DNA of 42,702 nt, taken from positions 705 through 43,406 of the forward strand of contig LBTS01000001.1 of NCBI GenBank assembly GCA_000992165.1, given 5' to 3'. The notes under the pieces were generated by a model. The model made no database searches. It was not told where the DNA came from and saw only the letters and a program-made list of their open reading frames with translations. Positions 713-31,119 of the stretch are shown piece after piece. The stretch comes from Candidatus Moranbacteria bacterium GW2011_GWC2_37_8 (GTDB taxonomy: Bacteria > Patescibacteriota > Minisyncoccia > Moranbacterales > GWC2-37-73). Made by a program: the position numbers and the translations under genes. Each line of letters opens with the position of its first letter. Within the stretch, counting starts at the first letter, position 1.

Positions 713-785
713 GGGTTATTAGCTCAGTTGGTAGAGCAGCGGCCTCTTAAGCCGACGGTCGCAGGTTCGAATCCTGCATAACCCA
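713..785 (+). tRNA. tRNA-Lys (anticodon CUU)
   Basis: 73-nt hand-folded cloverleaf: acceptor GGGTTAT/ATAACCC, anticodon loop CTCTTAA, T-loop TTCGAAT. No encoded CCA. Confidence 0.9.
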
Positions 786-814
786 CAAAGTATTTCCACA
801 GGGAGGAAAGAATT

Positions 815-886
815 GCCCCCATAGCTCAACGGATAGAGCAACAGCCTTCTAAGCTGAAGATCTAGGTTCGATTCCTGGTGGGGGTA
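815..886 (+). tRNA. tRNA-Arg (anticodon UCU)
   Basis: 72-nt cloverleaf: acceptor GCCCCCA/TGGGGGT, anticodon loop CTTCTAA, T-arm CTAGG-TTCGATT-CCTGG. No encoded CCA. Confidence 0.9.
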
Positions 887-1021
887 CAAAATGGATATTT
901 TGACACCCAGCAGGAATCGAACAGGAAAGGGTTCGGGAAAACCTAGGTTTTCCCGGAGCGGAAGCTTGAAACCGCTGGGTTTCAAAGAGCGAAGCGAGTG
1001 AGATTTTCCTGGTGGGGGTAC
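872..1021 (+). repeat. 16-nt direct duplication of the tRNA-Arg(UCU) 3' end flanking a hairpin-rich insert
   Basis: TTCCTGGTGGGGGTAC at 872-887 and 1006-1021. Between them are a perfect 20-nt palindrome (GGGAAAACCTAGGTTTTCCC, 935-954) and an 8-bp hairpin (966-985). Confidence 0.8.
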
Positions 1022-1139
1022 GTGATTGAATAAATTTTTAATTTTAAATTTCCAATTTTTAAACAATCCAATTTATTGGATATTCATTGAAAATTGTGAA
1101 TTGGAAATTGAAAATTCCATGCTTTTGCATGGCATATAT

Positions 1140-1212
1140 GGCGGGTATCGTCTAGCGGCTAAGACATCGGTTTGTGGTACCGAGAATCTGGGTTCGATTC
1201 CCAGTACTCGCC
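1140..1212 (+). tRNA. tRNA-His (anticodon GUG) with encoded G-1
   Basis: Extra G at 1140 opposite discriminator C1212. Acceptor GCGGGTA/TACTCGC, anticodon loop TTGTGGT. Confidence 0.9.
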
Positions 1213-1296
1213 CCTGTATAGATTTCTCATGTTTATTTCTTCGAAGGGCTAAACATGCATCAGATTTGCTTCATTCATTGCCTATGCAATGATTTT

Positions 1297-1369
1297 GCGC
1301 CCGTAGCTCAACGGATAGAGTACTTGGCTTCGAACCAAGGGGTTGTAGGTTCGAGTCCTGCCGGGCGCA
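1297..1369 (+). tRNA. tRNA-Arg (anticodon UCG)
   Basis: 73-nt cloverleaf: acceptor GCGCCCG/CGGGCGC, anticodon loop CTTCGAA. No encoded CCA. Confidence 0.9.
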
Positions 1370-1379
1370 CAGAATTTTA

Positions 1380-19985: not shown

Positions 19986-20639
19986 TTACTGATTACTAAG
20001 AATTTTAGTCAGCGGACAATTTTCGTGGTCGTGTTTCTTGGCTGCGCAATATCTGCGCCCATAATCAATCAATAAAAAAGTTATTTGATTCCACTGCTTA
20101 CGAGGAAAAATTTGCATCAGATCCTGTTCAATTTTATTCGGGTCCTTATATTCACTAAGCTTCAATAGATTAGCCAGGCGTCTGACATGCGTGTCCACTG
20201 CTATTCCCACTACAACTCCGCAAGCATTACCTAAAATTATGTTGGCTGTTTTGCGAGCAACACCGGGAAGCTCAACGAGCTGCTCCATAGTGCAGGGGAT
20301 TTCCCCTTTATATTTTTCTTTGATTATCTTAGCAGTCGCAAGAATATTTTTAGCTTTATTATGATAAAAGCCAGTAGAATGAATACCCTGCTCAAACTCA
20401 ATCAAATCAGCTTTCACATAATCATCAAGTGACTTATATTTTTTAAATAATTTTTCTGTCACAACATTGACCATCTTATCAGTGCATTGCGCGCTCAAAA
20501 CAACAGCTACTAAAAGCTCCCAAGAATTAGAAAAATTCAAAGCGATTTTCGCATCAGGAAAAAGTTTCTTCAATTCTTTGAAAATTATCTTTGCCCGTTT
20601 GCGACGTTCAGATATTTCTTCTTCAGAGAGCTTTAACAT
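19986..20639 (-). CDS. nth: endonuclease III family DNA glycosylase/lyase
   Basis: HhH-GPD motif LPGVARKTANIILG (catalytic Lys) and VDTHVRR (Asp). Only two of the usual four C-terminal cluster cysteines are present. Confidence 0.85.
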   Translation of the reverse strand: MLKLSEEEISERRKRAKIIFKELKKLFPDAKIALNFSNSWELLVAVVLSAQCTDKMVNVVTEKLFKKYKSLDDYVKADLIEFEQGIHSTGFYHNKAKNILATAKIIKEKYKGEIPCTMEQLVELPGVARKTANIILGNACGVVVGIAVDTHVRRLANLLKLSEYKDPNKIEQDLMQIFPRKQWNQITFLLIDYGRRYCAAKKHDHENCPLTKILSNQ

Positions 20640-20900
20640 CTACTTTCTATTTAAAATATAAAGATTATTTTCATATGAAAGTGAATATTTCCTGCCAGAC
20701 TGATCTTCAAAAAGAGCTACGCGATAATTTTTAGCATAAACAAAAAATACCTTTGCATATTCACTTTCCAACCTATCATTCAAATAAAACATGCCATCTT
20801 CATGTTCTTTTTCATACATCAGGTGATAACCATGCACAAATTTTTCCAAAGCCATAATATAGTATTTTTTATATTTATAGCTTAATTTAAGCACATTCAT
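20640..20900 (-). CDS. hypothetical small protein
   Basis: 86-aa ORF abutting the nth start. The real start may be MALEKF at 20855. No recognisable domain. Confidence 0.45.
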   Translation of the reverse strand: MNVLKLSYKYKKYYIMALEKFVHGYHLMYEKEHEDGMFYLNDRLESEYAKVFFVYAKNYRVALFEDQSGRKYSLSYENNLYILNRK

Positions 20901-20918
20901 GCATTTTTCTCAATATAG

Positions 20919-20948
20919 AAAAGGTGGGTATTTAAATACCCACCTTTT
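20919..20948 (-). terminator. terminator downstream of the VOC-family gene
   Basis: 13-bp stem AAAAGGTGGGTAT / ATACCCACCTTTT with loop TTAA. Confidence 0.7.
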
Positions 20949-20956
20949 TAAAAGAT

Positions 20957-21352
20957 TTACTCTGGTTTCCAATCAGTCGGTTGCATGAGTCCAAAGCGGT
21001 TTCCTTCAGTGTCTTTCGCCATCGCGAACCATCCTACACCTGGAATTTCTGATTTTTCTTTAGTTATCGCGCCTCCATTTGTTTTGACTGCCTCCATGGA
21101 TTTTTCCAAATCATCCACTGCAATCGTGCAATCATAAAGATAAAACTTTTCATCCTCCTTTCCTGATCTCTTATACAATCCGCCATTAATCCCTGGTTCT
21201 CCTGGTTTTTTCGTCTCTATTCCCCAATAATCCATGCCGCCTTCCTCTTTTTTCATCATCTGTGATATTTTCCAGCCCAAAGCTTTTTCATAAAACTTCT
21301 TAGCCCTTTCAATATCATCAGCTTGAATCTCAAAATGTATCACTGTGTTCAT
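20957..21352 (-). CDS. VOC (glyoxalase/bleomycin-resistance) family protein
   Basis: 131 aa. N-terminus VIHFEIQADDIERAKKFYEKALGWKI is typical of glyoxalase-like domains. Confidence 0.8.
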   Translation of the reverse strand: MNTVIHFEIQADDIERAKKFYEKALGWKISQMMKKEEGGMDYWGIETKKPGEPGINGGLYKRSGKEDEKFYLYDCTIAVDDLEKSMEAVKTNGGAITKEKSEIPGVGWFAMAKDTEGNRFGLMQPTDWKPE

Positions 21353-21516
21353 ATGTTTATGTTTGAAAAAATAATTAACTATCTTGTGACGTATAATACA
21401 ATGTGGTTTAATTTCTCTTTCCTTGGGCTGGCGGAGCCATCATTTATGAATTGCATTATCATTTAGTATCCTGCTATAATCAAGATGTTAGAGTATTCTT
21501 ATTATATTTCTCACCT

Positions 21517-21984
21517 ATGAATAATAAACCTCTTATCACTCTATTCGAGGAAAATGAGATGAATATTGCTGCTCTCTATTCACTCTACGCGCAGCAGCTT
21601 CCAGAGCAAACTGTTTTTTGGAATCGAATGTCCAATGAAGAAATCGGCCACGCCGCGCAAATTGGAAACGAAAAAGATGACAGCGAAGAAGCCATTCCTG
21701 AAAACAAGTTTTCACGCGGCATCATCAAATATTTGATGGATTTTGTATTGGATGAAATAAACAAAGCCCAACATCATCCCCTCTCACACCGCGACGCGCT
21801 GCTTACCGCTCTACGCATCGAGCAATCCATGCTTGAAAGAAAATGCTTTGACCTTTTTCTTCCTACCAAGAAAACGTTGCAAGAGGTTTTTTTCAAGCTC
21901 AACCGCGAAACTGAAAGACACGTGGAATATTTACAAAAAGAAATGAAAAAAAATAAGTTCAGTTTCAAAGAACCTTCCAAGTGA
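21517..21984 (+). CDS. ferritin-like four-helix protein (tentative)
   Basis: Paired E..H motifs (NEEIGHAAQ, ETERHVEYL) suggest the ferritin/rubrerythrin-like superfamily. Start taken at MNNKPL. Confidence 0.45.
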   Translation: MNNKPLITLFEENEMNIAALYSLYAQQLPEQTVFWNRMSNEEIGHAAQIGNEKDDSEEAIPENKFSRGIIKYLMDFVLDEINKAQHHPLSHRDALLTALRIEQSMLERKCFDLFLPTKKTLQEVFFKLNRETERHVEYLQKEMKKNKFSFKEPSK

Positions 21985-22010
21985 TACAGCGAATGAAAAC
22001 TTAGCCCTCA

Positions 22011-22042
22011 AAAAAATTACGTAACTAATTACGTAATTTTTT
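22011..22042 (+). terminator. AT-rich terminator hairpin
   Basis: AAAAAATTACGT / ACGTAATTTTTT 12-bp stem followed by a T-run, 27 nt after the stop at 21984. Confidence 0.5.
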
Positions 22043-22050
22043 GTTTATGC

Positions 22051-22101
22051 CGAGGTTGCGGGAGTCAATCCGAACTTATTTGATTGAATATGGGTATTAA
22101 A
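22051..22101 (+). repeat. left copy of a ~50-bp direct repeat bracketing the abiE cassette
   Basis: CGAGGTTGCGGGAGTCAATCCGAACTTATTTGATTGAATATGGGTATTAAA matches 23549-23600 with about 5 substitutions and 1 indel. Confidence 0.85.
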
Positions 22102-22109
22102 TTCAGCTA

Positions 22110-22138
22110 TTGCCTTATTTGTTATAATTTGCTATAAT
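22110..22138 (+). promoter_or_regulatory. promoter of the abiEi-abiEii operon
   Basis: TTGCCT, 17-nt spacer, TATAAT (22133-22138), 40 nt upstream of the abiEi ATG. Confidence 0.6.
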
Positions 22139-22178
22139 GTAACTAGGAAGGGTTTTTAATACCCCCTTAAGTAAACAT

Positions 22179-22775
22179 ATGGATAATAAACCAGCAAAAA
22201 GAGCCTATTTAGAGGCAATATTAAGATCAGCTCGAACAGTCTTTTCTTCAAAAGACGCTGCTTTGATGTGGAATGAGAATAATGTGGCCACTATCAATGA
22301 CAGATTAAAGAAATATGTTAAAACCGGAAAATTGATCAGAGTGCATCAAGGTTTTTATGCTAAAGATGAAAATTATGACCGCATGGAGTTAGCATCTAAA
22401 ATATATACCCCCTCTTATATCAGTTTTGAAACCGTTTTGACTCGCGAAGGAATCAATTTCCAATATTACGGAAATATTTTTATTGCATCCTATTTGAATC
22501 GCGAAATTGAAGCCAATGGTCAGAAAATATCCTATGTACGCATGAAAAATTATGTATTGAGCAATGCAGTAGGAATTGAACATCGAAATGATGTCGCTTG
22601 GGCAACCAAGGAGCGCGCCTTTTTAGATCGATTATATGTCACCAAGGAATATCACTTTGATAATTTGAACCCATTGGATTGGGACAAGGTTTTTGAAATT
22701 GTGCCAATCTATAACAACAAGCGATTAGAAAAGAAGGTTAAAGAATACTATACTAATTTTGTAAACAAAAAGTAA
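22179..22775 (+). CDS. abiEi: AbiEi-family (type IV TA) antitoxin-like transcriptional regulator
   Basis: 198 aa with an N-terminal wHTH-like region (FSSKDAALMW...LKKYVKTGKLIRVHQGFY). Sits 1 nt upstream of an AbiEii-family gene. Confidence 0.65.
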   Translation: MDNKPAKRAYLEAILRSARTVFSSKDAALMWNENNVATINDRLKKYVKTGKLIRVHQGFYAKDENYDRMELASKIYTPSYISFETVLTREGINFQYYGNIFIASYLNREIEANGQKISYVRMKNYVLSNAVGIEHRNDVAWATKERAFLDRLYVTKEYHFDNLNPLDWDKVFEIVPIYNNKRLEKKVKEYYTNFVNKK

Positions 22776-22776
22776 T

Positions 22777-23469
22777 ATGTTTAATTACGCAAAACACAAA
22801 AGCATTCTATTGCAGATTCTAAAGGATGTGTACACCGACACCACCATTTCACCTTATCTCGGTTTCAAGGGTGGGACAGCTGCCTTGTTATTTTATGGAT
22901 TGAATAGAAACTCTGTCGATTTGGATTTTGATCTTTTAGACGACACTAAGGAAAAAGAAGTTTTTGAAAAGTTGCAAAAAATAGTTACCAAGTACGGCAC
23001 GGTTGAAGATTCACATATAAAACGTTTCAATCTGCTTAATGTCATTTCATACGCAACTGGGGCACAGAAAATTAAGGTTGAGGTTAACCGGAGGCAGTTC
23101 GGTTCTCACTATGAAATAAAAACATTTCTGGGAATTTCCATGTTGGTTATGACTCCGCCTGACATGTTTGCTCATAAGCTCATGGCTATGTATGAACGAA
23201 TTGGCAAAACAAGTCGGGATATTTTTGATGTGTATTATTTCTACAAACAAGGCTGGGAAATAAACAAAGAGATTGTCGAGCAAAGAGCGGAAATGTCATT
23301 CAAAGAATTGCTACTCAAATGCGTTGGAATGCTGGAAAAAACAGACAACAAACATATTCTTGATGGCTTAGGAGAATTCCTGAGCGAACAACAAAAAGAT
23401 TGGTCTCGCGCCAAACTTAAAAGTGAAACGATATTCTTTTTGAAAATGGCAGTTGAAAATGAGAAATAG
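22777..23469 (+). CDS. abiEii: AbiEii/AbiGii-family nucleotidyltransferase toxin
   Basis: LGFKGGTAALLFYGLNRNSVDLDFD motif typical of DUF1814/AbiEii nucleotidyltransferases. 230 aa. Confidence 0.8.
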   Translation: MFNYAKHKSILLQILKDVYTDTTISPYLGFKGGTAALLFYGLNRNSVDLDFDLLDDTKEKEVFEKLQKIVTKYGTVEDSHIKRFNLLNVISYATGAQKIKVEVNRRQFGSHYEIKTFLGISMLVMTPPDMFAHKLMAMYERIGKTSRDIFDVYYFYKQGWEINKEIVEQRAEMSFKELLLKCVGMLEKTDNKHILDGLGEFLSEQQKDWSRAKLKSETIFFLKMAVENEK

Positions 23470-23548
23470 ATTGCAATCTTCGAACCCATAATTCTTGCTT
23501 TAAATAAAACGAAAACAGACTCCTTTGCAGAAGTCTGTCCTCACTTGT

Positions 23549-23600
23549 CGAGGTTGTGGGAATCGATACGAACTTATTTGATTGAACATGGGTATTGAAA
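23549..23600 (+). repeat. right copy of the ~50-bp direct repeat bracketing the abiE cassette
   Basis: CGAGGTTGTGGGAATCGATACGAACTTATTTGATTGAACATGGGTATTGAAA. Confidence 0.85.
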
Positions 23601-23605
23601 AACAG

Positions 23606-23645
23606 AAAACCCACCGAAGCAGATTTTCCGCTGGTGGGTTTTTTT
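23606..23645. terminator. bidirectional terminator
   Basis: AAAACCCACC ... GGTGGGTTTT stem with a T-run on both strands. Lies between the abiE operon (+) and the 74-aa gene (-). Confidence 0.7.
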
Positions 23646-23868
23646 AGTTGAAGCCTTCAATGAATTTTTTAACTTCCTCGCGCGAACGCAAGTTGCCTGT
23701 CATCTTTAGCATCATGCCAAGCTGAATTGCAGGGTGGCCAGCTGTTTCGGTATGTTTTCCCAAATCAGAAAACATAGATGTCATTGCATTTTCCAGGTCG
23801 CCACGCTCAATATATTCCAGAGCGCGCTTTTTGCACCAATCCATGTGTTCTTGCCGTGTCTTTTCCAT
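23644..23868 (-). CDS. hypothetical 74-aa protein
   Basis: Start at 23868 is preceded by a consensus AGGAGG 6 nt upstream. No recognisable domain. Confidence 0.6.
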   Translation of the reverse strand: MEKTRQEHMDWCKKRALEYIERGDLENAMTSMFSDLGKHTETAGHPAIQLGMMLKMTGNLRSREEVKKFIEGFN

Positions 23869-24137
23869 GTGATTCCTCCTTGTTGGTGGTATGTGAATGA
23901 AAACTGCGCCAATTTGCCAATATGCTAAATCCATTTTTCAGATTTAGATTTTTCAAGTTACTAACAAACAAGCATAGCATATCAAAGCTAATTTGTCAAG
24001 CACCCCAGCGATTCTCTCTTATTTAAGCCTAAATATTAACTCCCGCAGTTGTTAGGCGTGCAAAAAATTCCATTTTTTGCTTACAGGCCGTATTTCAAAT
24101 CGTTCCGACGGCAGTCAAGGGAGTAAAGCCGAGCGAT

Positions 24138-24151
24138 GGGGCGCAGGGATT
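24138..24151. repeat. left copy of the 14-bp direct repeat (putative att core)
   Basis: GGGGCGCAGGGATT is identical to 28490-28503 inside tRNA-Pro. Confidence 0.8.
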
Positions 24152-24300
24152 TACGCGTCACTCTTTCGTCGACACTCAAGAGTTCCTTGTCCTGGGCAGC
24201 GCTGAATGCTCCTATGGTCGCATCCATCGACGCACACTGCGTTATTGTTCTGCTGAACAATAACTTGTTTAGCTTCTGCCCGTTCGAATCCTTGCGCAAG

Positions 24301-24353
24301 ATACATAAGAAAAACAGGATGACTCAAAAAGTCATCCTGTTTTTCTTATGTAT
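24301..24353. repeat. perfect 24-bp inverted repeat (hairpin, 5-nt loop)
   Basis: ATACATAAGAAAAACAGGATGACT-CAAAA-AGTCATCCTGTTTTTCTTATGTAT. Confidence 0.95.
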
Positions 24354-24474
24354 GTCGAGTGTCGTAGGTCGTGTTAGAACGGCAATTCAAGAGTCAAATG
24401 CTTACATCCATATACCCGACTTGAAGGAGTTTGCTTGAAAAATTCACTGTATCATATCTTATAGTTTGCGTATG

Positions 24475-24498
24475 CTGATGTTGACCATCAGTTTTTTT
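24475..24498 (+). terminator. intrinsic terminator on the plus strand
   Basis: CTGATG-TTGAC-CATCAG followed by TTTTTTT. No convincing protein gene lies upstream on this strand. Confidence 0.6.
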
Positions 24499-24626
24499 GT
24501 TTTTCAATATGTGGGGTGCTTATGTTTCAATGAAGTCAAGCTTTGGAGTTAAAATCACTTGCTCCCATCTCAGCTAAATTTCTAATATGTAATAAGACTT
24601 ACTATAAATAGTTAGCAATAAAAAAA

Positions 24627-24650
24627 AGCCAGAGTTTTTACGCTCTGGCT
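24627..24650 (-). terminator. terminator of the 286-aa orphan gene
   Basis: AGCCAGAG / CTCTGGCT stem and an 8-nt T-run on the minus strand, about 40 nt after the stop at 24691. Confidence 0.7.
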
Positions 24651-24690
24651 ATTATGCGAATTTCTTGCTTAGTCTTTTCAGGACATCTTT

Positions 24691-25551
24691 CTAATTATTC
24701 TGAAAAAACAATTCGTTTACTTTCTCTATAACTTTTTTTGAGTCATCTTCTGAAAGCAAAGCTCTTTTTTCAAGAAGGTCTTCCCATCTTGAATTGATAT
24801 CCCATCTCTGTTGTTCAGCAGTCTCAACATAGGAAGCTCCAACCGCCGTATGACCTCCCGTAACCTTGCCCTTTTCGTCTCTTGTTTTTTCCCAGCCTGT
24901 AATGGTTTTATCCTCAAGTCCATCGAGTAATTGTGGGAATAAACCGTTTGTTGACCTCAAGGAATAAAATATATTTCCAATCAAAACACTGCTAGGTTTA
25001 GTTTTTTCTAGTGACGAAATAAAATCAACAAACACTCGGTAGTTAGGATGACCTTCGATATATTTAAGCACTACTCTCATGTTATCACTGCGTTCTAAAA
25101 CTGGTTCAGGGTTTTCATTTACAAGTTTATCCCAAAAGGCTTTTGCAACTTCTTGATTTTTTGCACGGTCAAGGGATGCAACAATGAAAGAAAAATTTTC
25201 CAGTTCATGGTCAAATGTACCCGTGTTGTATTTATCCAGCAAAGGTTTCAATGATGTTTTGTTTATCATTTCTACTAACTGCTTAGGGTCTGTTTCAAGC
25301 CCCTCACGATTACCATTCATCACATCATTCATAAGCTGATTAAACTTACGAAACGCATTGATACGTTCATTTACATTTTTTTCAATGCCTGCTTCATTTG
25401 CAATAGTTTCTACAACCTCTTTAAGCTCTTCCTGTTTCTTTATAAGTTGTTCTCTCTCATTGCTCATCTTGCTTTCCTCTGGAGACATCATTGACTTTGC
25501 CTTGAACTCTTCTTTGATGGTTGGATTGTATCCCATTTTTTCATTTTCCAT
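24691..25551 (-). CDS. hypothetical 286-aa protein (element cargo)
   Basis: AAGGGGG Shine-Dalgarno 9 nt upstream of the ATG, plus its own terminator. Charged coiled-coil-like N-terminus. No domain recognised. Confidence 0.7.
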   Translation of the reverse strand: MENEKMGYNPTIKEEFKAKSMMSPEESKMSNEREQLIKKQEELKEVVETIANEAGIEKNVNERINAFRKFNQLMNDVMNGNREGLETDPKQLVEMINKTSLKPLLDKYNTGTFDHELENFSFIVASLDRAKNQEVAKAFWDKLVNENPEPVLERSDNMRVVLKYIEGHPNYRVFVDFISSLEKTKPSSVLIGNIFYSLRSTNGLFPQLLDGLEDKTITGWEKTRDEKGKVTGGHTAVGASYVETAEQQRWDINSRWEDLLEKRALLSEDDSKKVIEKVNELFFQNN

Positions 25552-25707
25552 AGTTTTGTTCCCCCTTGTTAAATTACTTATTTATTTTTTGATTATTATG
25601 GCTTCATTGAGCTCATTTACATCCATTATAGCATGCTTTACGGCTTTTGTCTATCCTTTCATCATATTTACTGATATAGTTTGTGTATATCAATAAAATA
25701 CATTAGC

Positions 25708-26328
25708 ATGAAAAAATTAAAATTAGATTCAGATTTTATTTGGATACTTAAAACAATCAAGCATATCAGCAATGCAAACAATGGCAATGCGTTTGAATAT
25801 CTCTTTGATGACGTGCTAACCCTTGAAGGTGCGCCGGCTGTAAGAAGCATCCATGAAGGCACGATTAGCCAGTTTGAGGCAATGGGTGTGATTAGCGCAC
25901 AGGAAATAGGCAATGCCTTACATGATGGAGTATTCAAATTGGAGGGATTCAAGATTCAAATTTTGAAATCCAAGTTTGATGAAATTCAAAAAGAACTATC
26001 CATTCAAAAATCAGCAGTAAAAACTTATACTTCTCATTTTTTCGACAGCAAGGCGCTAATTAAAATCAACACGCAAGACATTCCATTGCCTGCATATGCC
26101 AATGAACACCTTCTTTGCAGAGTTATGTTTGAATACATGATAGGAGAACCAGTGGATTGGTCTATTATTTTTGAAAAAATGACAGGTGATGAGCCCAAGG
26201 ATAAAAATAAGAATTCAAGAATGGTCAGAGATACCATGCATGCAGTCAATGAACGAATCCATGAGCTTGCAAAAACAGAAAGAGACCTTTTTGAATGGAA
26301 AAACAAATGCATCAAAAGACTTTTTTGA
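25708..26328 (+). CDS. hypothetical protein, possible C-terminal winged-helix DNA-binding region
   Basis: Divergent from the 286-aa gene. The first ATG is at 25708. The tail SRMVRDTMHAVNERIHELAK..LFEWKNKCIKRLF resembles OmpR-type wHTH ends only weakly. Confidence 0.55.
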   Translation: MKKLKLDSDFIWILKTIKHISNANNGNAFEYLFDDVLTLEGAPAVRSIHEGTISQFEAMGVISAQEIGNALHDGVFKLEGFKIQILKSKFDEIQKELSIQKSAVKTYTSHFFDSKALIKINTQDIPLPAYANEHLLCRVMFEYMIGEPVDWSIIFEKMTGDEPKDKNKNSRMVRDTMHAVNERIHELAKTERDLFEWKNKCIKRLF

Positions 26329-26332
26329 AAAT

Positions 26333-26359
26333 GTGAGTCAGTGAGTCACAGGTGAGTCA
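26333..26359. repeat. three copies of the word GTGAGTCA
   Basis: GTGAGTCA at 26333-26340, 26341-26348 and 26352-26359, just after the stop at 26328. Confidence 0.9.
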
Positions 26360-26440
26360 CATCCACAAATTATACCATTGAGCCAAGATTTATATTTTGG
26401 CTTTTTTGTTTTGCAAAACATTACCGCCGAACCCATACTC

Positions 26441-26644
26441 ATGCAATTCAGTGATGAATCAATAGAAAAATTTCGAATGCTCTACTCTCAGCGTTTCGGC
26501 AAAGACCTTGACCGCAAGACTGCTTTTGAATATGCACAGAAACTTTTTCGAGCCATTGAACTCACTTATGTTCAGATGTCAGTTGCAGACTTCAAAAATT
26601 TGCAAAAGCGTCGCAAAGAAACTAAGCCAGATTCTCACCATTAG
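26441..26644 (+). CDS. hypothetical small protein (67 aa from the first ATG)
   Basis: The ORF track starts at a TTG at 26378. First ATG gives MQFSDESIEKF. No Shine-Dalgarno and no recognised domain. Confidence 0.4.
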   Translation: MQFSDESIEKFRMLYSQRFGKDLDRKTAFEYAQKLFRAIELTYVQMSVADFKNLQKRRKETKPDSHH

Positions 26645-26865
26645 CAAAATTTCGCTACCTAAGCCATTTTCTCAGCTTTAGCACTCATCCATGCATCACG
26701 CAGTCTATAGCCATTCACCGCAGTCATAATCCAAATACTCTCAATAAGTCCTATTGCTAACCATTCATCAAATACATTTATGCGAGCCAGAGCTTCTCCA
26801 AAATCATATCAGATACGACGTTAGAAATAATTCTTAACCTTGGGCAGTATTGTGTATAAAATGGC

Positions 26866-26894
26866 TTGTATAAGCCTAAATATCGTCCTATAAT
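26866..26894 (+). promoter_or_regulatory. promoter of the serine recombinase gene (would give a leaderless mRNA)
   Basis: TTGTAT (26866-26871), 17-nt spacer, TATAAT (26889-26894). The ATG lies 6 nt after the -10 box. Confidence 0.55.
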
Positions 26895-26900
26895 ACAAGC

Positions 26901-28517
26901 ATGAGCAAAAACGAACAAAAAATCCACTATATCCTGTATGCACGCAAGTCATCCGAAGATGAAAGGCGCCAAGTGCAGTCTATTGAAAACCAGATTCAAA
27001 TAATGTTGGACAAAGCCAAGGCATTAAAATTGCATATCGTTGATGTTTTGCAGGAATCAAAATCAGCCAGAAAGCCAGGCAGACCAGTCTTCAATGAGAT
27101 GATGGAAAGAATCAAACGGGGTGAAGCGGATGGAATTTTAACATGGCATGCAAATCGTCTTTCAAGAAATCCATTGGATGCGGGCAATGTTCAATGGGCA
27201 CTGCAAAATGGAACTATCCGCTCAATCATGACAAATGACAGGGAATATTTACCAGAAGACAATTCTCTCATGCTTGGAATGGAATGTTCCATGTCTGAAC
27301 AATACAGCAAAGACTTAAGCAAAACCGTAAATAGGGGGCTTCTCAGAAAAGCGAAGGAGGGCTGGCTTCCAAATCTTCCACCAACTGGATATATCAATGA
27401 CAAAGTGAACAAGATAATCATCAATGACCCCGAGCGTTTTCATTTGGTTCGCAAAATTTGGGACTTGATGCTTACTGGAAACTATACTCCTCCGCAGATT
27501 CTCAAGATTGCCAATGATGAATGGGGATTCCGCACACGAAAATATGAAAAGTCTGGTGGTGGCAAACTTTCAAGAAGTGGAATCTATAAAATGCTTACCA
27601 ATGGATTTTATCTTGGCTTTTTTTACAAGAAAGGTGAACTTTTTGAAGGTAGCCATGAAAGGATGATAACTGTTGATGAATGGGACAGAGTACAGACACT
27701 CTTGGGACGCAAAGGCAAACCAAGACCAAAGAAACACTCCTTCGCTTTCACCGGTGCGATTCGTTGCGCCGAATGTCAATGTCTTATTACAGCAGAAACA
27801 AAGAAAAAAATCATCAGGAAGACTGGTGAAATTCGCAGTCACACCTACTACCATTGCACCCACAAACGAACGGACATGAAATGTTCACAGCGTAAAAACA
27901 CCTTAGAGTCAGGACTAGAACTAATGATAGAGCAAGAGTTAGACAAATATACGATACTACCAGAGTTTAAAGAATGGGCAATGGAAGAATTAAACAAGGC
28001 TAATGACAACGAGATTGAAACAAGGACTAAGATGTATGAAATGCTACATAAAGCCTATACAGAGGCACAGAAGCAACTAGACACGCTCACAAAGATGAGA
28101 TACAGAGACCTAATCAATGACGAGCAGTTTCTTAGGGAGAGCAGAATACTTGAAGCTGAAATAGCTAAGCTAAAAGAGAAATTAGGCACCACAGAGGCAC
28201 GAGCGAAGCAATGGTTGGAGCTTACCGAAAAAACCTTTGAATTCGCTACTTATGCCAGAAATGCATTCCTCAAGGGTAATGACACGCTCAGAAAAGAATT
28301 GCTTTTGACTTTAGGTCAGAACCAAATACTTGGAAACCAAATACTCACTCTACAAGCGTATGAATGGTTTGTTCCTATCAGTGAAGACTATCCAAAACTT
28401 AAAGCTGAATATGTGAAGGTTAGAACCAATAAAAAACTATCTACAAAAGCAAAAACAGATGCTCTCACATCTGTTCGTGCACACTGGTCGGGGCGCAGGG
28501 ATTCGAACCCTGTCTAA
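26901..28517 (+). CDS. large serine recombinase / integrase
   Basis: Resolvase catalytic domain (YILYARKSSEDERRQVQSIENQ, HANRLSRN), recombinase domain, zinc ribbon (CAECQC...YYHCTHK..C) and a long coiled coil. The last ~11 codons are tRNA-Pro sequence. Confidence 0.9.
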   Translation: MSKNEQKIHYILYARKSSEDERRQVQSIENQIQIMLDKAKALKLHIVDVLQESKSARKPGRPVFNEMMERIKRGEADGILTWHANRLSRNPLDAGNVQWALQNGTIRSIMTNDREYLPEDNSLMLGMECSMSEQYSKDLSKTVNRGLLRKAKEGWLPNLPPTGYINDKVNKIIINDPERFHLVRKIWDLMLTGNYTPPQILKIANDEWGFRTRKYEKSGGGKLSRSGIYKMLTNGFYLGFFYKKGELFEGSHERMITVDEWDRVQTLLGRKGKPRPKKHSFAFTGAIRCAECQCLITAETKKKIIRKTGEIRSHTYYHCTHKRTDMKCSQRKNTLESGLELMIEQELDKYTILPEFKEWAMEELNKANDNEIETRTKMYEMLHKAYTEAQKQLDTLTKMRYRDLINDEQFLRESRILEAEIAKLKEKLGTTEARAKQWLELTEKTFEFATYARNAFLKGNDTLRKELLLTLGQNQILGNQILTLQAYEWFVPISEDYPKLKAEYVKVRTNKKLSTKAKTDALTSVRAHWSGRRDSNPV

Positions 28518-28559
28518 ATGATCCCAAATCACTCGTGCTACCGTTGACACCACGCCCCG
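28485..28559 (-). tRNA. tRNA-Pro (anticodon UGG) with encoded CCA
   Basis: 75-nt cloverleaf: acceptor CGGGGCG/CGCCCCG (C1-G72), anticodon loop TTTGGGA, T-arm CAGGG-TTCGAAT-CCCTG, A73 then CCA. Confidence 0.9.
28490..28503. repeat. right copy of the 14-bp direct repeat (putative att core) inside tRNA-Pro
   Basis: GGGGCGCAGGGATT is the complement of tRNA-Pro T-loop end, T-stem 3' strand and acceptor positions 66-71. Confidence 0.8.
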
Positions 28560-28642
28560 TTACAAATTTTAAATTCTAACAACCTATTAAAATTCTACCT
28601 TTGTCTCTAAATACAGCAATCAGTAACAAAACTATCTTGTAA

Positions 28643-28671
28643 AATTTGTAACGGGGCACGCCCCACAAATT
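28643..28671 (-). terminator. hairpin 1 with GGGGCACGCCCC core, probable terminator of the GIY-YIG gene
   Basis: AATTTGT-AAC-GGGG-CACG-CCCC-ACAAATT. On the minus strand it is followed by TTTT. Confidence 0.5.
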
Positions 28672-28696
28672 AACAAGAGCTTCCGTAATCTGTCTT

Positions 28697-28735
28697 CTGA
28701 AATTTCTAACGGGGCACGCCCCAGAAGAATTTCAG
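28697..28735. repeat. hairpin 2 with the same TAACGGGGCACGCCCCA core
   Basis: CTGAAATTTCT-AAC-GGGGCACGCCCC-AGAAGAATTTCAG. The outer stem differs from hairpin 1 but still pairs. It overlaps the GIY-YIG stop codon. Confidence 0.8.
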
Positions 28736-28966
28736 TCTGTTTTTTATATACCGTTTTCCCATACCAGACTTCAAATACTTTTCCCTTGCTAAGGCATCTT
28801 TTTCGTTGTGGCAGGCTTCATAGTAAATCAGCTCAAATGGTCTACGTGGTCTGGTTGAAATATTTAAACCACCATCATGCTCAGCAACTCTCCTTTTCAG
28901 ATCATCAGTATAACCAGTATAAAACTGGCCATCCTTTAAGCTCTGCAGAACATAGACGTAGAACAT
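28706..28966 (-). CDS. small GIY-YIG nuclease family protein
   Basis: MFYVYVLQSLKDGQFYTGYTDDLKRRVAEH matches the GIY...YIG motif. 86 aa. Confidence 0.9.
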   Translation of the reverse strand: MFYVYVLQSLKDGQFYTGYTDDLKRRVAEHDGGLNISTRPRRPFELIYYEACHNEKDALAREKYLKSGMGKRYIKNRLKFFWGVPR

Positions 28967-29052
28967 GTTTTTTGATTTCTAAAACCTTCCCTTCAAACTA
29001 ATATCAATAATACACTTGTTTAAAAGCTTAGTCAACCTAGCCTGGCGCCTAT

Positions 29053-30573
29053 TTACTTTTTCTCAAGTTTGGCTACTTTGAGCTCCAATTCTCGAATCAA
29101 GGCATTCAAACGTTCAATTTCTGAAATATATTCGCTCTTTTTCGAGTCAGCTTCTTCAAACAAAGTCACGTCGATTGCTGTGCCAATATACCCCCTAAAC
29201 ATGCCCTGGGATGTCATTCTTGTTACAGCCTCGACAAGTATCCACTTATATTCTCCTCGAGCGTTTATGATGCGATATTTTACCGAAAGAGGCTCTTGTT
29301 TTTCCATTGCTAAGCGATATTCCGCAAGGACATGCTCTTTATCATCAGGATGAATCACACTTGTCCAAGCATCGCCAAACAATTCTTCCTCAGATTTACC
29401 AAGAAATTTAGTCAGAGCATTATTCACATAAATAATCTTATTGACTGAATCGGATACCCAAATCATAACCGGCGCAGTATCCGCAATATTCATAAAGCGA
29501 GACTCACTCTCCTTCTTTTCTGCAAGAGTGGCGCTAATAGCGTCGAGCATGGCATTTATTTCCTTGTTTAGTTTGGTAAATTCATCTTTTCCATCAACTA
29601 CCAATCTCTCAGTCTTGTGATTTTTACTGCTAACCAATTTTACACCTTGAACAAGCTTATAAATCTTTCTTAGAACAAAAAATTCAAAAAGCATCAAAAT
29701 AATGAAAACTTCGAAGATTCCTATACCTATGAGGAACATATCGAGCCTTTTAGTATTTTCAAGTCCAACCTTGTGAATATCTCTTGGAACATCAGCTCTA
29801 AATATCACGGCAGGTTCGCCAAAAATATCATCAACCAACACAAAACCAGAAATTACATCCTCGTTAGGATCTTCATTTATATAGGTATAACTACTCAAAT
29901 TCAGCTTCTTTTTAGCTTCTACAAATAATGGCTGCTTCGAAGCATTTTCAACCGTTGAATGTTCCAATTTCAAAACAGTAGCCTTAGACAAGGAAGCCGT
30001 AAAATTTTCATCGGCGACAAATCCAAAGGAAATATAGCCTTTAGGTATTGCACTGCCATCGCTAGAAGTTATTGATTGAACTGCCAAAATAAAAGGACCG
30101 TTCTCTGTATTCACTATTCCAGCAATTTTATCAAAAGTATTGCCTTTTCCAATCGCTTCAATCCTTGGATTTAAAAATATCCGCTCAAGATCCTCAGGAA
30201 GCGGAGTCTCTTGATTATTTAAAATATACTTTTCAAAGATTGTTTCCCCTGCGGAATTTTTTATCAAAATAAAATTCAAACGAAGTTGTGGCAGAGTTTC
30301 ACTTTGCAGATTTGATTCAATGTATTCAGCATTTCTATCCTCTGCAAATTCATACGTATCATCCCACATTGACCAGTCAGAAAGCTTCACCGATAAGTCA
30401 TCAAACCGTCCTTCAAGCGCCAAATCAACGCGACTCATATTATCTTTGACAGATTGTCTTTCTAATTTTTCAAAATTAGCAGTTTCAATATTTGTGAAGA
30501 TTGTAGAAATACCAAAAAAAAGCATTCCAAAAACAACCACTACAATCAAAAATACTTTTGTTCGAATTTTCAT
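29053..30573 (-). CDS. membrane sensor protein: CHASE4-like ectodomain, TM, HAMP-like linker, PAS, coiled coil; no output domain
   Basis: DWSMWDDTYEF motif typical of CHASE4. Second TM MFLIGIGIFEVFIILMLFEFFVL. PAS region RFMNIADTAPVMIWVSD...YRIINARGEYKWI. The protein ends in a heptad-rich tail. Confidence 0.7.
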   Translation of the reverse strand: MKIRTKVFLIVVVVFGMLFFGISTIFTNIETANFEKLERQSVKDNMSRVDLALEGRFDDLSVKLSDWSMWDDTYEFAEDRNAEYIESNLQSETLPQLRLNFILIKNSAGETIFEKYILNNQETPLPEDLERIFLNPRIEAIGKGNTFDKIAGIVNTENGPFILAVQSITSSDGSAIPKGYISFGFVADENFTASLSKATVLKLEHSTVENASKQPLFVEAKKKLNLSSYTYINEDPNEDVISGFVLVDDIFGEPAVIFRADVPRDIHKVGLENTKRLDMFLIGIGIFEVFIILMLFEFFVLRKIYKLVQGVKLVSSKNHKTERLVVDGKDEFTKLNKEINAMLDAISATLAEKKESESRFMNIADTAPVMIWVSDSVNKIIYVNNALTKFLGKSEEELFGDAWTSVIHPDDKEHVLAEYRLAMEKQEPLSVKYRIINARGEYKWILVEAVTRMTSQGMFRGYIGTAIDVTLFEEADSKKSEYISEIERLNALIRELELKVAKLEKK

Positions 30574-30677
30574 AACAATGATTTACAGTTAGATGTTTGA
30601 CTTCTATGTGAATAGTAACACAACAACTGTAAATCTAAAAAGCAATGAGTATTATATCTTTTCCTGTTCATCATAAC

Positions 30678-30701
30678 AAAATCCCGCCTAAGCGGGATTT
30701 T
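30678..30701 (-). terminator. terminator downstream of hup
   Basis: AAAATCCCGC-CTAA-GCGGGATTTT. Confidence 0.7.
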
Positions 30702-30837
30702 GTTTCCATCTTTTGGATAATATATATCAAAAGAAATATATTTCAATATGGTAGTCCTTATTTTCAAGCGAAGCGAGAGAGATGGAAATAAATTTTCATC
30801 TCCGAGCAAGCGCAGAAACCAAGCAGTTAAAAACTGC

Positions 30838-31119
30838 TTACTTAACAGCCTCTTTCAAAGCTTTACCAGCTGTGAATTTTGGAACTGTCATTGCAGGGAT
30901 TTGGATTTTTGCTTTAGTTTGAGGATTGATTCCTTCGCGAGCAGCTCGCTGAGAAACTTTGAAAGTTCCGAATCCAGTCAATGTTACTTTGTTTCCTTGT
31001 CTGATTTCGTCGGTGATCTTTTCTTGAAGAGCTTCAAGCACTCCTTCAACTGCTTTTTTTGAAAGGTCAGTCTTAGTTGCGATTGCATCAACGAGGGCAT
31101 CTTTGTTTACATTAGCCAT
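30838..31119 (-). CDS. hup: HU family DNA-binding protein
   Basis: 93 aa. GFGTFKVSQRAAREGINPQT arm motif. GAAAGGAAGG Shine-Dalgarno upstream. Confidence 0.95.
   Translation of the reverse strand: MANVNKDALVDAIATKTDLSKKAVEGVLEALQEKITDEIRQGNKVTLTGFGTFKVSQRAAREGINPQTKAKIQIPAMTVPKFTAGKALKEAVK

What the first reader, a model, noticed from the sequence alone, without database searches (positions are those of the whole stretch)
24138..28559. ~4.35-kb integrative element at tRNA-Pro(UGG), bounded by a 14-bp direct repeat and carrying a large serine recombinase
GGGGCGCAGGGATT occurs at 24138-24151 and again at 28490-28503. At the second site it is the complement of tRNA-Pro from the end of the T-loop through the T-stem to acceptor positions 66-71. 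A 538-aa large serine recombinase ends 14 nt beyond the repeat, so its last codons are tRNA sequence. Everything between the repeats is orphan genes.

A 14-mer repeated by chance in 42.7 kb is unlikely (roughly 1e-4 to 1e-3). Three caveats apply:
- Serine integrases need only a 2-bp crossover, so a 14-bp core is longer than required.
- The left copy is followed by A,T rather than G72,A73. Precise excision would leave a C1.A72 tRNA-Pro, so the element may be fixed or decayed.
- The real left end could lie elsewhere, for example at the 50-bp repeats at 22051 and 23549.
Basis: partly seen in the sequence, partly recalled or inferred. Interest (0 to 1): 0.7.

Follow-up and report, generated by a model that had tools for sequence, protein, structure and literature searches.

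The report
Self-splitting serine integrase at tRNA-Pro
A 4.1-kb mobile element in a Candidate Phyla Radiation (CPR) bacterium inserted at the last bases of a tRNA-Pro gene using a serine integrase whose attachment site lies inside its own gene, so insertion splits off the gene's last 27 codons; hundreds of relatives do the same at many different tRNAs.

Summary
The raw observation holds: the 14-mer occurs twice, tRNA-Pro(UGG) lies at 28485-28559 (-), and a 538-aa large serine recombinase (LSR) reads into the tRNA.

The 14-mer is not the element boundary. The true left end is at 24354-24357 (GTCG, also at 28487-28490), giving an element of about 4.13 kb.

- **Split gene.** Codons 24355-24438 encode SSVVGRVRTAIQESNAYIHIPDLKEFA*, the LSR's native C-terminus. 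Joining 28490 to 24358 restores a 556-aa protein that aligns without gaps to unsplit homologues.
- **Family pattern.** In 47 related loci, covering 15 isoacceptors, the invariant Trp codon TGG is exactly the complement of the tRNA's CCA end. Displaced tails lie 4.1-10.9 kb upstream.
- **T-loop mimic.** The tail's V-R-T codons form TTAGAAC, resembling the tRNA T-loop box but 5 bp further out, as expected for LSR attP versus attB.
- **Replacement terminator.** The last LSR codons encode, on the tRNA strand, a covarying intrinsic terminator. It replaces the host hairpin stranded at 24301-24353.

No empty site or excised circle of this particular element was found. My literature searches found no description of such a system.

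The parts
24138..24151 (+). Left copy of the 14-mer GGGGCGCAGGGATT. It lies outside the element and is a relic or a chance match, not the att core.
   Evidence: two exact copies. (no extension of similarity). It lies 203 bp left of the P' arm, with the host terminator in between.
24301..24353 (-). Host tRNA-Pro intrinsic terminator: a perfect 24-bp-arm hairpin with a T-tract on the minus strand. Integration stranded it at attL, where it also forms the B arm of the former attB.
   Evidence: I4, 100% complementary arms. (terminator-like on the minus strand, 24348-24306). (in the reconstructed empty site it follows ...CCCCGAC directly). L158 has the same arrangement.
24354..24357 (+). attL crossover core GTCG, identical to 28487-28490. 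The crossover dinucleotide is most likely GT.
   Evidence: In 7 of 9 attL/attR pairs the third base of TGG and the next base are identical at both junctions.
24355..24438 (+). Displaced 3' end of the LSR gene: 27 codons plus stop, SSVVGRVRTAIQESNAYIHIPDLKEFA*. This is the P' arm of attP plus the native C-terminal tail.
   Evidence: gap-free alignment with native-tail homologues. (tail HMM, E=2e-9). (a PWM built from 22 other family P' arms gives 17.9 bits here, against 7.8 for the next best site).
24374..24380 (+). TTAGAAC box in the P' arm (V-R-T codons), at nt 22-28 from the Trp-equivalent codon. It mimics the T-loop box and sits 5 bp further from the crossover.
   Evidence: Known geometry from PMC3783163.
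24474..24502 (+). Terminator-like hairpin and T-run just after the tail's stop codon. It would be the terminator of the intact LSR gene in the excised form.
24691..25551 (-). 286-aa cargo ORF of unknown function. No homologue was found in the family loci searched.
   Evidence: Terminator-like site 24627-24650 and promoter-like site 25653-25625.
25708..26328 (+). 206-aa ORF, conserved in the closest relatives (L158 45% identity, L012 33%, L159 26%).
26411..26644 (+). 77-aa ORF, conserved in 34 family loci, upstream of the LSR wherever the LSR position was mapped. It is a candidate directionality factor or regulator; this role is inferred.
26901..28517 (+). Large serine recombinase as it stands in the integrated state (538 aa). 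Codons 1-529 up to Trp529 (28485-28487) are native; the last 9 codons (SGRRDSNPV) are antisense tRNA-Pro.
28443..28476 (-). Intrinsic terminator for tRNA-Pro supplied by the element. It is encoded antisense within LSR codons ~516-526 (KAKTDALTSVR): a 9-bp stem, GAGA loop, then TTTGCTTTTGT.
   Evidence: site 28476-28453. (family covariation: 86% paired against 75% in shuffles, 0/500). (G.U wobble pairs favour the minus strand, 70 against 17).
28487..28490 (+). attR crossover core GTCG, the complement of tRNA positions C71-G72-A73-C74.
28485..28559 (-). tRNA-Pro(UGG), the integration target (B' arm). C75 and A76 (28485-28486) come from the element's Trp codon.
   Evidence: None of the four other tRNA genes in the window is followed by an encoded CCA.
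28502..28508 (+). TTCGAAC, the complement of the T-loop, at nt 17-23 from the Trp codon. It is the proposed zinc-ribbon-domain (ZD) motif of the B' half-site.

Best explanation
Window 24354-28490 is a 4.13-kb integrative element of Candidatus Moranbacteria. It is inserted at the extreme 3' end of tRNA-Pro(UGG), with the crossover within GTCG (tRNA positions 71-74, most likely A73-C74).

The element is mobilised by a large serine recombinase (LSR) whose attP lies inside the 3' end of its own gene, centred on the invariant Trp529 codon TGG, which is the complement of CCA.

**Steps shown by the evidence**
1. The free form carries an intact 556-aa gene: ...SVRAHW-SSVVGRVRTAIQESNAYIHIPDLKEFA.
2. 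attP x attB recombination splits that gene.
   - Codons 1-529 stay next to the tRNA and read on into 9 antisense-tRNA codons.
   - The last 27 codons are carried 4.13 kb away, to attL.
3. The element donates C75 and A76 to the tRNA.

**Steps inferred**
- The element supplies a replacement intrinsic terminator, encoded antisense in the LSR's last codons. The host terminator is stranded at attL.
- The P' arm box TTAGAAC (V-R-T codons) is the zinc-ribbon-domain (ZD) motif. It copies the T-loop box TTCGAAC of the B' arm, 5 bp further from the crossover. This would be how the enzyme tells attP from attB.
- The conserved 77-aa protein is the directionality factor or a regulator.
- Losing the tail changes LSR activity after integration.
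For: **In the window**
- Joining 28490 to 24358 keeps the reading frame and gives a 556-aa protein. It aligns without gaps to nine homologues that have non-tRNA tails.
- The tail HMM hits 24358-24432 at E=2e-9.
- A PWM built only from other family members picks 24361 as the top site in the window, 17.9 bits against 7.8 for the next.
- A terminator-like site follows the tail's stop codon. The host hairpin abuts attL.
- The four other tRNA genes in the window lack an encoded CCA, as does the reconstructed empty site.

**In the family**
- Of the 120 closest homologues, 75 end in antisense-tRNA peptides, 8 have native tails, and 35 stop within 3 aa of the Trp.
- In 47 loci the tRNA's 3' end coincides exactly with TGG. 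These cover 15 isoacceptors.
- Displaced tails sit upstream on the same strand: at 4.36 and 4.40 kb in the two closest relatives, and at 8.4-10.9 kb in others.
- attL and attR share cores of 3-7 nt.
- Relatives at 31-39% identity show the same pattern.

**Half-site geometry**
- GAAC lies at nt 25-28 in the P' arm and nt 20-23 in the B' arm.
- The Arg codon is AGA or CGA in 22 of 22 tails, against 51% of Arg codons in these genes overall.
- The 5-bp rule for ZD motifs comes from PMC3783163.

**Terminator**
- 86% of cells pair, against 75% in shuffles. There are 53 two-sided changes against 18.5 expected (both 0/500). Slid controls give 31-56%.
Against: - No empty tRNA-Pro site and no circular junction was found for this element. 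The metagenome junction scan returned nothing, not even the occupied junctions, so the organism is simply absent from that collection.
- The 556-aa form is not in the protein collection.
- Every assembly that spans the region is occupied.
- The crossover dinucleotide cannot be fixed family-wide. L078 and L159 do not fit the third-base-of-TGG-plus-one position unless a later substitution occurred.
- The B arms show no obvious conserved motif (not analysed formally).
- None of the native-tail contigs is demonstrably circular.
- The window lacks a 75-aa gene that the closest relatives carry between the 77-aa gene and the LSR, so this copy may be defective.
- The exact 14-mer remains unexplained.
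Confidence: 0.85

Rival explanations
1. One reading: a 4.35-kb element (24138-28503) bounded by the 14-bp direct repeat as the att core.
For: The exact 14-mer has two copies, and no shuffle of 100 gave two. An ORF is open from 24136 to 24438, in the same frame as the GRRD codons at attR.
Against: - Native homologues join Trp directly to the [IV]V.xVRT tail, with no 70-aa insert.
- On this model a perfect 24-bp palindrome with a T-tract would sit inside the coding sequence.
- No similarity extends beyond the 14 nt.
- Family cores are 3-7 nt and sit at or right next to the TGG codon.
- Excision at the 14-mer would leave a C1.A72 tRNA. Excision at GTCG leaves it intact.
Confidence: 0.04
2. Same boundaries as the best explanation, but this copy is an immobilised remnant that can no longer excise.
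For: - Only occupied sites were seen in more than ten assemblies.
- No circular form is in the protein collection.
- The element is among the smallest in the family.
- It lacks the 75-aa gene conserved in L158, L159, L032 and L033.
Against: - The 529-codon LSR body is uninterrupted, and every residue that is invariant across the 26-sequence alignment, including Trp529, is by construction present in the window protein.
- The 27-codon tail is still in frame, without stops, and keeps the TTAGAAC box.
- The two cores are identical.
- The assemblies come from only a few related groundwater samples.
Confidence: 0.3
3. The 14-mer is real but older. It would mark the far end of a decayed island that once integrated into the T-arm of tRNA-Pro, in the style of tyrosine integrases. 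The LSR element later inserted into the regenerated tRNA end.
For: - Chance expectation for the 14-mer is low.
- Other loci carry extra relic tails beside an active-looking element: L159 at 2083, L111 at 4817, L034 at 6088.
- Partial tRNAs from earlier integrations are described for tycheposon islands (10.1101/2020.12.28.424599).
Against: - There is no integrase remnant and no further tRNA similarity around 24138.
- The copy lacks positions 72-76, which a displaced tRNA end should keep.
- Only about 200 bp would remain of the island.
Confidence: 0.25
4. There was no integration. The recombinase gene merely abuts a convergent tRNA gene and the ORF runs on by chance.
For: Convergent overlaps of ORFs with tRNA genes do occur as annotation artefacts.
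Against: - The TGG/CCA register is exact in 47 of 47 loci, across 15 isoacceptors.
- Displaced tails occur upstream.
- Native-tail forms exist.
Confidence: 0.01

Closest known systems
Large serine integrases of phages and integrative elements (A118/LI, Bxb1, phiC31, SPbeta)
   Same: - The domain set is Resolvase + Recombinase + zinc ribbon. Sequence matches the A118 integrase C-terminal domain, PDB 4kis and 6dnw.
- attL and attR share very little sequence.
- A shared outer motif sits 5 bp closer to the centre in attB than in attP.
   Different: - The target is the 3' terminus of tRNA genes, not the interior of protein-coding genes. The IME review states that serine recombinases integrate within genes and lists only tyrosine recombinases at tRNA 3' ends. 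Durrant et al. 2022 never mention tRNA.
- attP lies inside the enzyme's own ORF.
- There is an extra conserved region after the coiled coil (residues ~440-529).
SSV-type ('suicidal') tyrosine integrases of archaeal viruses and plasmids (SSV1, pTN3, pT26-2)
   Same: The att site lies within the integrase gene, the target is a tRNA gene, and integration partitions the gene (PMC8371274).
   Different: - They use tyrosine, not serine, chemistry, and are archaeal. [quoted passage not shown]
- They split the gene into two large parts. Here only the last 27 of 556 codons are removed, and all recognised domains stay together.
Integration-dependent immunity of mycobacteriophages (BPs, Brujita)
   Same: attP lies inside the 3' end of a phage gene, so integration exchanges the protein's C-terminus and changes its behaviour (PMC4557955).
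   Different: There the split gene is the repressor and the integrase is a tyrosine recombinase. Any regulatory effect of the tail swap here is untested.
tRNA-targeting genomic islands and tycheposons
   Same: They are small cargo-carrying elements at tRNA genes. Some family members here carry restriction-modification or other defence-type genes. Relic fragments lie next to intact elements. A minority of tycheposons encode an LSR.
   Different: Those elements duplicate a tRNA 3' segment of tens of nt as a direct repeat. Here only 3-7 nt are shared, and the element restores just the CA of CCA plus a terminator.

Membership tests
Large serine recombinase (serine integrase) | N-terminal resolvase catalytic domain with the nucleophilic serine | tested here: met
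   PF00239, E=9e-20, residues 11-154. Y13, R15, S17 and S18 are invariant in 26 homologues.
Large serine recombinase (serine integrase) | Recombinase domain followed by a zinc-ribbon domain | tested here: met
   PF07508 (residues 178-268) and PF13408 (283-346) are both above their curated cut-offs. phmmer matches the A118 integrase C-terminal domain, 4kis and 6dnw.
Large serine recombinase (serine integrase) | Coiled-coil insertion in the zinc-ribbon domain | not tested
   No structure was predicted. The match to A118 residues 69-251 runs into that region.
Large serine recombinase (serine integrase) | Short att sites with a 2-bp crossover, and attL and attR sharing little else | tested here: met
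   Shared cores are 3-7 nt in nine attL/attR pairs. The exact dinucleotide is not resolved.
Large serine recombinase (serine integrase) | ZD motif 5 bp closer to the centre in attB than in attP | tested here: met
   GAAC lies at nt 20-23 in the B' arm and nt 25-28 in the P' arm, in 47 attR sites and 21-22 tails. That the ZD binds this motif is an inference.
Large serine recombinase (serine integrase) | Catalyses attP x attB recombination | not testable with these tools
   Needs a recombination assay.
Classical tRNA-gene genomic island (Islander-type) | Tyrosine integrase | tested here: not met
   The only recombinase is a serine recombinase.
Classical tRNA-gene genomic island (Islander-type) | [quoted passage not shown] | tested here: not met
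   The 14-mer lies 203 bp outside the P' arm, lacks positions 72-76 and does not extend. The true junctions share 4 nt.
SSV-type self-disrupting integrase | att site inside the integrase ORF, so the gene is partitioned on integration | tested here: met
SSV-type self-disrupting integrase | Tyrosine recombinase fold and chemistry | tested here: not met
   Serine recombinase domains only.

The most novel reading that the evidence does not exclude
The window holds a member of a large, apparently undescribed clade of serine integrases, mostly from Patescibacteria (CPR), that are built around the tRNA 3' end.

- attP is written into the enzyme's own last codons.
- The Trp codon TGG is the complement of CCA.
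- The V-R-T codons mimic the T-loop at the attP spacing.
- The K-T-E-A-L-A-S-V codons encode an antisense terminator for the target tRNA.

Each lineage is retargeted to a different isoacceptor by changing the one or two codons after the Trp. Integration swaps the enzyme's C-terminal tail, which may act as a built-in switch of directionality or expression.
Probability: 0.55. Interest if true: 0.85.

Novelty: new variant of a known kind. Interest (0 to 1): 0.72.

Why it matters
- **A new class of target.** Serine integrases are the main tools for inserting large DNA, and their natural targets are thought to be protein-coding genes. This family targets the near-universal tRNA 3' end. Its half-site logic can be read directly from hundreds of natural attP/attB pairs, which gives a natural data set for learning how such enzymes are retargeted.
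- **Self-disrupting integrases in bacteria.** Integrases that disrupt their own gene were considered exclusive to archaea, and were known only for tyrosine recombinases.
- **Dense overlapping code.** About 80 nt of this DNA serves at once as protein-coding sequence, an attP arm, a mimic of tRNA sequence and a terminator on the opposite strand.
- **Gene flow in CPR bacteria.** The elements are a route by which genes move between CPR bacteria; some family members carry restriction-modification and other defence-type genes.

Tried and rejected
- **Junction scan.** One degenerate 48-nt pattern covering attB, attP, attL and attR was run against JGI metagenome contigs.
- **Circular form.** An exact look-up of the reconstituted 556-aa protein found nothing.
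- **Empty site through synteny.** Homologues of the neighbouring 506-aa sensor (52-63% identity) sit in different neighbourhoods.
- **Contigs holding the 96-aa and GIY-YIG neighbours.** All are occupied or cut short.
- **Logan contig L002 (24194-28516).** With k=31, its right end fits a branch exactly at 28487, the first base of GTCG. Its left end (24194) matches neither proposed boundary. I judged this ambiguous and did not rely on it.
- **Extending the 14-mer into a pseudo-tRNA.** Not significant.
- **Rfam on 20000-31000.** Only the tRNA was found; nothing at 23935-24300.
- **Circularity of native-tail contigs.** No terminal overlaps.
- **IMG/VR.** Only relatives at 38% identity or less.
- **Tail-like GACGTTAGAA 80 nt upstream of the LSR start.** It ranks third in the PWM scan (5.4 bits), behind an unrelated site, and is not conserved in relatives. 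Rejected as not significant.
- **Mirror-image ZD motif in the P and B arms.** None was evident by eye.
- **The 77-aa ORF as a DUF5659 protein.** No similarity.
- **Literature.** None found a description of serine integrases with attP in their own 3' end targeting tRNA CCA ends.

Full report
**1. The observation**

GGGGCGCAGGGATT occurs exactly twice, at 24138-24151 and 28490-28503. No shuffle of 100 gave two or more matches. ARAGORN and Rfam place tRNA-Pro(tgg) at 28485-28559 on the minus strand. The ORF 26901-28517 (+) is a 538-aa large serine recombinase (LSR) with Resolvase, Recombinase and Zn_ribbon_recom domains. Its last nine codons (SGRRDSNPV) are antisense tRNA. The window comes from the chromosome of Candidatus Moranbacteria GW2011_GWC2_37_8, a Candidate Phyla Radiation (CPR) bacterium (name of P0001). 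The flanks carry ordinary housekeeping genes.

**2. What the relatives show**

The LSR has thousands of homologues; 4562 scored E<=0.001 among the 8000 candidates that were scored. The closest unrelated ones are 56-64% identical. I read the C-termini of the 120 best.
- After an invariant ...S-V-R-x-x-W, 75 continue with peptides such as LGRRDSNPR, LRGQDSNLQPS or LPGWDSNPRPIGYT. These are the antisense translations of tRNA acceptor and T-arms.
- 35 stop within three residues of the Trp.
- 8 carry a different, mutually similar tail, for example WLSIVDRVRTAIQEANCYIHI (P0005) and WLRIVDNVRTIIERQNEYIYIPDL (P0079).

In 82 loci fetched from genome and metagenome collections, 47 have a tRNA gene on the opposite strand whose 3' end coincides exactly with the first base of the Trp codon. 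In those loci TGG is the complement of CCA. The tRNAs represent 15 isoacceptors. Relatives at only 31-39% identity also end inside tRNA genes.

**3. The displaced tail in the window**

The ORF 24136-24438 (+) ends in SSVVGRVRTAIQESNAYIHIPDLKEFA*. This is the 'other' tail.
- Joining 28490 to 24358 keeps the reading frame and gives a 556-aa protein. It aligns without gaps to the nine native-tail homologues.
- An HMM built from native tails hits 24358-24432 at E=2e-9, and nothing else in the window scores below E=0.05.
- A position weight matrix made only from 22 other family members' tails puts its best window-wide score at 24361. That score is 17.9 bits, against 7.8 for the next site.
- A terminator-like hairpin follows the tail's stop codon at 24474-24492.

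attL and attR share only GTCG (24354-24357 and 28487-28490). The element therefore spans about 4.13 kb, not 4.35 kb.

**4. The same anatomy elsewhere**
- The two closest relatives found in long contigs (64% identity) sit at tRNA-Gln genes: L158 at tRNA-Gln(ctg) and L159 at tRNA-Gln(ttg). Both have the same gene order, and their displaced tails lie 4404 and 4364 bp upstream. Their cores are GTTG and TGG.
- Other members have tails 8.4-10.9 kb upstream, with cores of 4-7 nt.
- Native-tail genes lie on contigs with no tRNA nearby.
- Cargo in the larger members includes a ResIII helicase with an N6_N4 methylase, a Dam-type methylase, a ThiF/E1-like protein and a Toprim protein.
- A 77-aa ORF (window 26411-26644) recurs in 34 loci, upstream of the LSR wherever the LSR position was mapped.
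- The C-terminal 130 residues before the Trp define about 700 clusters at 50% identity.
- IMG/VR holds only distant relatives.

**5. What lies between the 14-mer and the true end**

Positions 24301-24353 form a perfect 24-bp-arm hairpin (I4). On the tRNA strand it reads as an intrinsic terminator. In the reconstructed empty site it follows ...CCCCGAC directly. It is therefore the tRNA's own terminator, now stranded at attL. L158 has a similar hairpin abutting its attL.

The empty-site tRNA would lack an encoded CCA, as do the four other tRNA genes in the window. The element's Trp codon supplies C75 and A76.

The 14-mer itself does not extend into further tRNA similarity: 410 to 678 of 2000 controls score at least as high. 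It has no Rfam match around it. It is either a relic of an older event at this tRNA or a chance match. I cannot decide which.

**6. Half-site logic (inference from sequence)**

Counting from the T of TGG, the tRNA arm carries TCGAAC (the complement of the T-loop) at nt 18-23 in the consensus of 47 attR sites. The tail arm carries T[TC][AC]GAAC at nt 22-28. GAAC is therefore 5 bp further out in attP. The Arg codon of V-R-T is AGA or CGA in 22 of 22 tails. Those two codons make up 51% of Arg codons in these genes overall, which points to a constraint at the DNA level. Rutherford et al. showed that the zinc-ribbon-domain (ZD) motif of LI integrase lies 5 bp closer to the crossover in attB than in attP (PMC3783163). 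The pattern here fits that rule. That the ZD actually binds this box has not been tested.

**7. A terminator hidden in the coding sequence**

On the tRNA strand, the 50 nt after CCA read as follows: a 9-nt spacer, a 9-bp stem, a 4-nt loop (GAGA, GAAA or similar), the returning stem, then TTTTGCTTT. In the window this occupies 28443-28476, and the simple scan also flags it. Across 65 distinct family sequences:
- 86% of cells pair, against 75% in shuffles (0/500 reach the observed value).
- There are 53 two-sided changes against 18.5 expected (0/500).
- Slid controls give 31-56%.
- Non-Watson-Crick cells are G.U on the tRNA strand 70 times but only 17 times on the LSR strand.
- The window itself carries a compensated pair, U-A where the consensus has G-C.

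I infer that the element replaces the tRNA's terminator. That would keep the tRNA a proper transcription unit and limit antisense transcription into the LSR gene.

**8. What is not shown**
- I found no empty site and no circle junction for this element. Every assembly that spans the region is occupied.
- The window lacks a 75-aa gene present in its closest relatives, so this copy could be inactive.
- Two contigs hint that family members are variable within populations, but this is weak evidence. L066 spans exactly one element, from attL core to attR core. L068 ends in attP-type sequence while carrying an attL 8.4 kb upstream.
- The crossover dinucleotide is most likely the third base of TGG plus the next base, GT in the window. 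This fits 7 of 9 pairs; L078 and L159 do not fit.

**9. Comparison with known systems**

By domains and att-site logic this enzyme is a large serine integrase. It differs from described ones in two ways.
- Its target is the 3' terminus of tRNA genes. Reviews assign tRNA 3' ends to tyrosine recombinases and the interior of genes to serine recombinases (PMC5704250). The large LSR survey by Durrant et al. never mentions tRNA.
- Its attP lies inside its own ORF. That feature is described only for archaeal SSV-type tyrosine integrases, and is said to be exclusive to archaea (PMC8371274).

The exchange of a C-terminus on integration recalls the integration-dependent immunity of mycobacteriophage BPs (PMC4557955). 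Nine successful full-text searches found no description of this arrangement. The library is incomplete, however, so prior description cannot be excluded.

**10. Verdict**

What is there is a compact member of a widespread family of self-splitting, tRNA-end-targeting serine integrases, mostly from CPR bacteria. The DNA around the Trp codon serves at once as coding sequence, attP, tRNA mimic and terminator. I rate it a new variant of a known kind, with interest 0.72.

Noticed in passing
window 22048-22101 and 23546-23599: A 54-nt direct repeat (87% identical) flanks an AbiEi-like/AbiEii toxin-antitoxin pair (22179-23469). Several independent assemblies break at about 22170. This may be a small inserted cassette.
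   Followed up: partly
window 28554-28571 vs 28640-28657; 28650-28665 and 28708-28723: An 18-nt perfect inverted repeat joins the tRNA-Pro leader plus its first 6 nt to a site 68 nt upstream. AACGGGGCACGCCCCA occurs twice exactly, the second copy forming the last codons of the 86-aa GIY-YIG ORF. The sequence CGGGGC-A-CGCCCC resembles the two strands of the tRNA-Pro acceptor stem.
   Followed up: partly
window 28706-28966 (-) and L159 4078-4362 (-): A small GIY-YIG nuclease gene sits next to the targeted tRNA locus both in the window and in the relative L159, there just outside attL.
   Followed up: no
L018 9791-9832, L021 9814-9855, L024 9669-9713 (minus strand): In distant relatives (31-39% identity) an inverted copy of the last ~35 LSR codons, native tail included, lies 200-300 bp upstream of the LSR start. 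This is in addition to the displaced tail several kb upstream. It could be a second att-like site that allows inversion.
   Followed up: no
L159 2083, L111 4817-4888, L034 6088-6144 (-): Extra displaced-tail fragments lie beside intact or integrated elements. They suggest relics of earlier or tandem insertions.
   Followed up: no
window 24194-24213: Two independent Logan assemblies break here: L002 starts at 24194 and L005 ends at 24213. The site is 140-160 bp left of attL, in a locally G+C-rich stretch with no called gene and no Rfam hit. The cause is unknown.
   Followed up: partly
window 26645-26900: The closest relatives (L158, L159, L032, L033) carry a conserved 75-77-aa gene (MKSxERRF...KLVDKxDY) between the 77-aa gene's homologue and the LSR. 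The window has no trace of it.
   Followed up: partly
window 713-1370: A cluster of four tRNA genes (Lys, Arg, His, Arg), none followed by an encoded CCA. tRNA-Pro is the only tRNA in the window with a genomic CCA, and that CCA comes from the element.
   Followed up: yes
L066 (whole contig, 8758 bp) and L068 (10652 bp): L066 runs exactly from an attL core to an attR core. L068 ends 16 nt after the Trp codon in attP-type sequence while carrying the matching attL 8.4 kb upstream. Both patterns are expected if occupied and free or empty forms coexist in those samples.
   Followed up: partly
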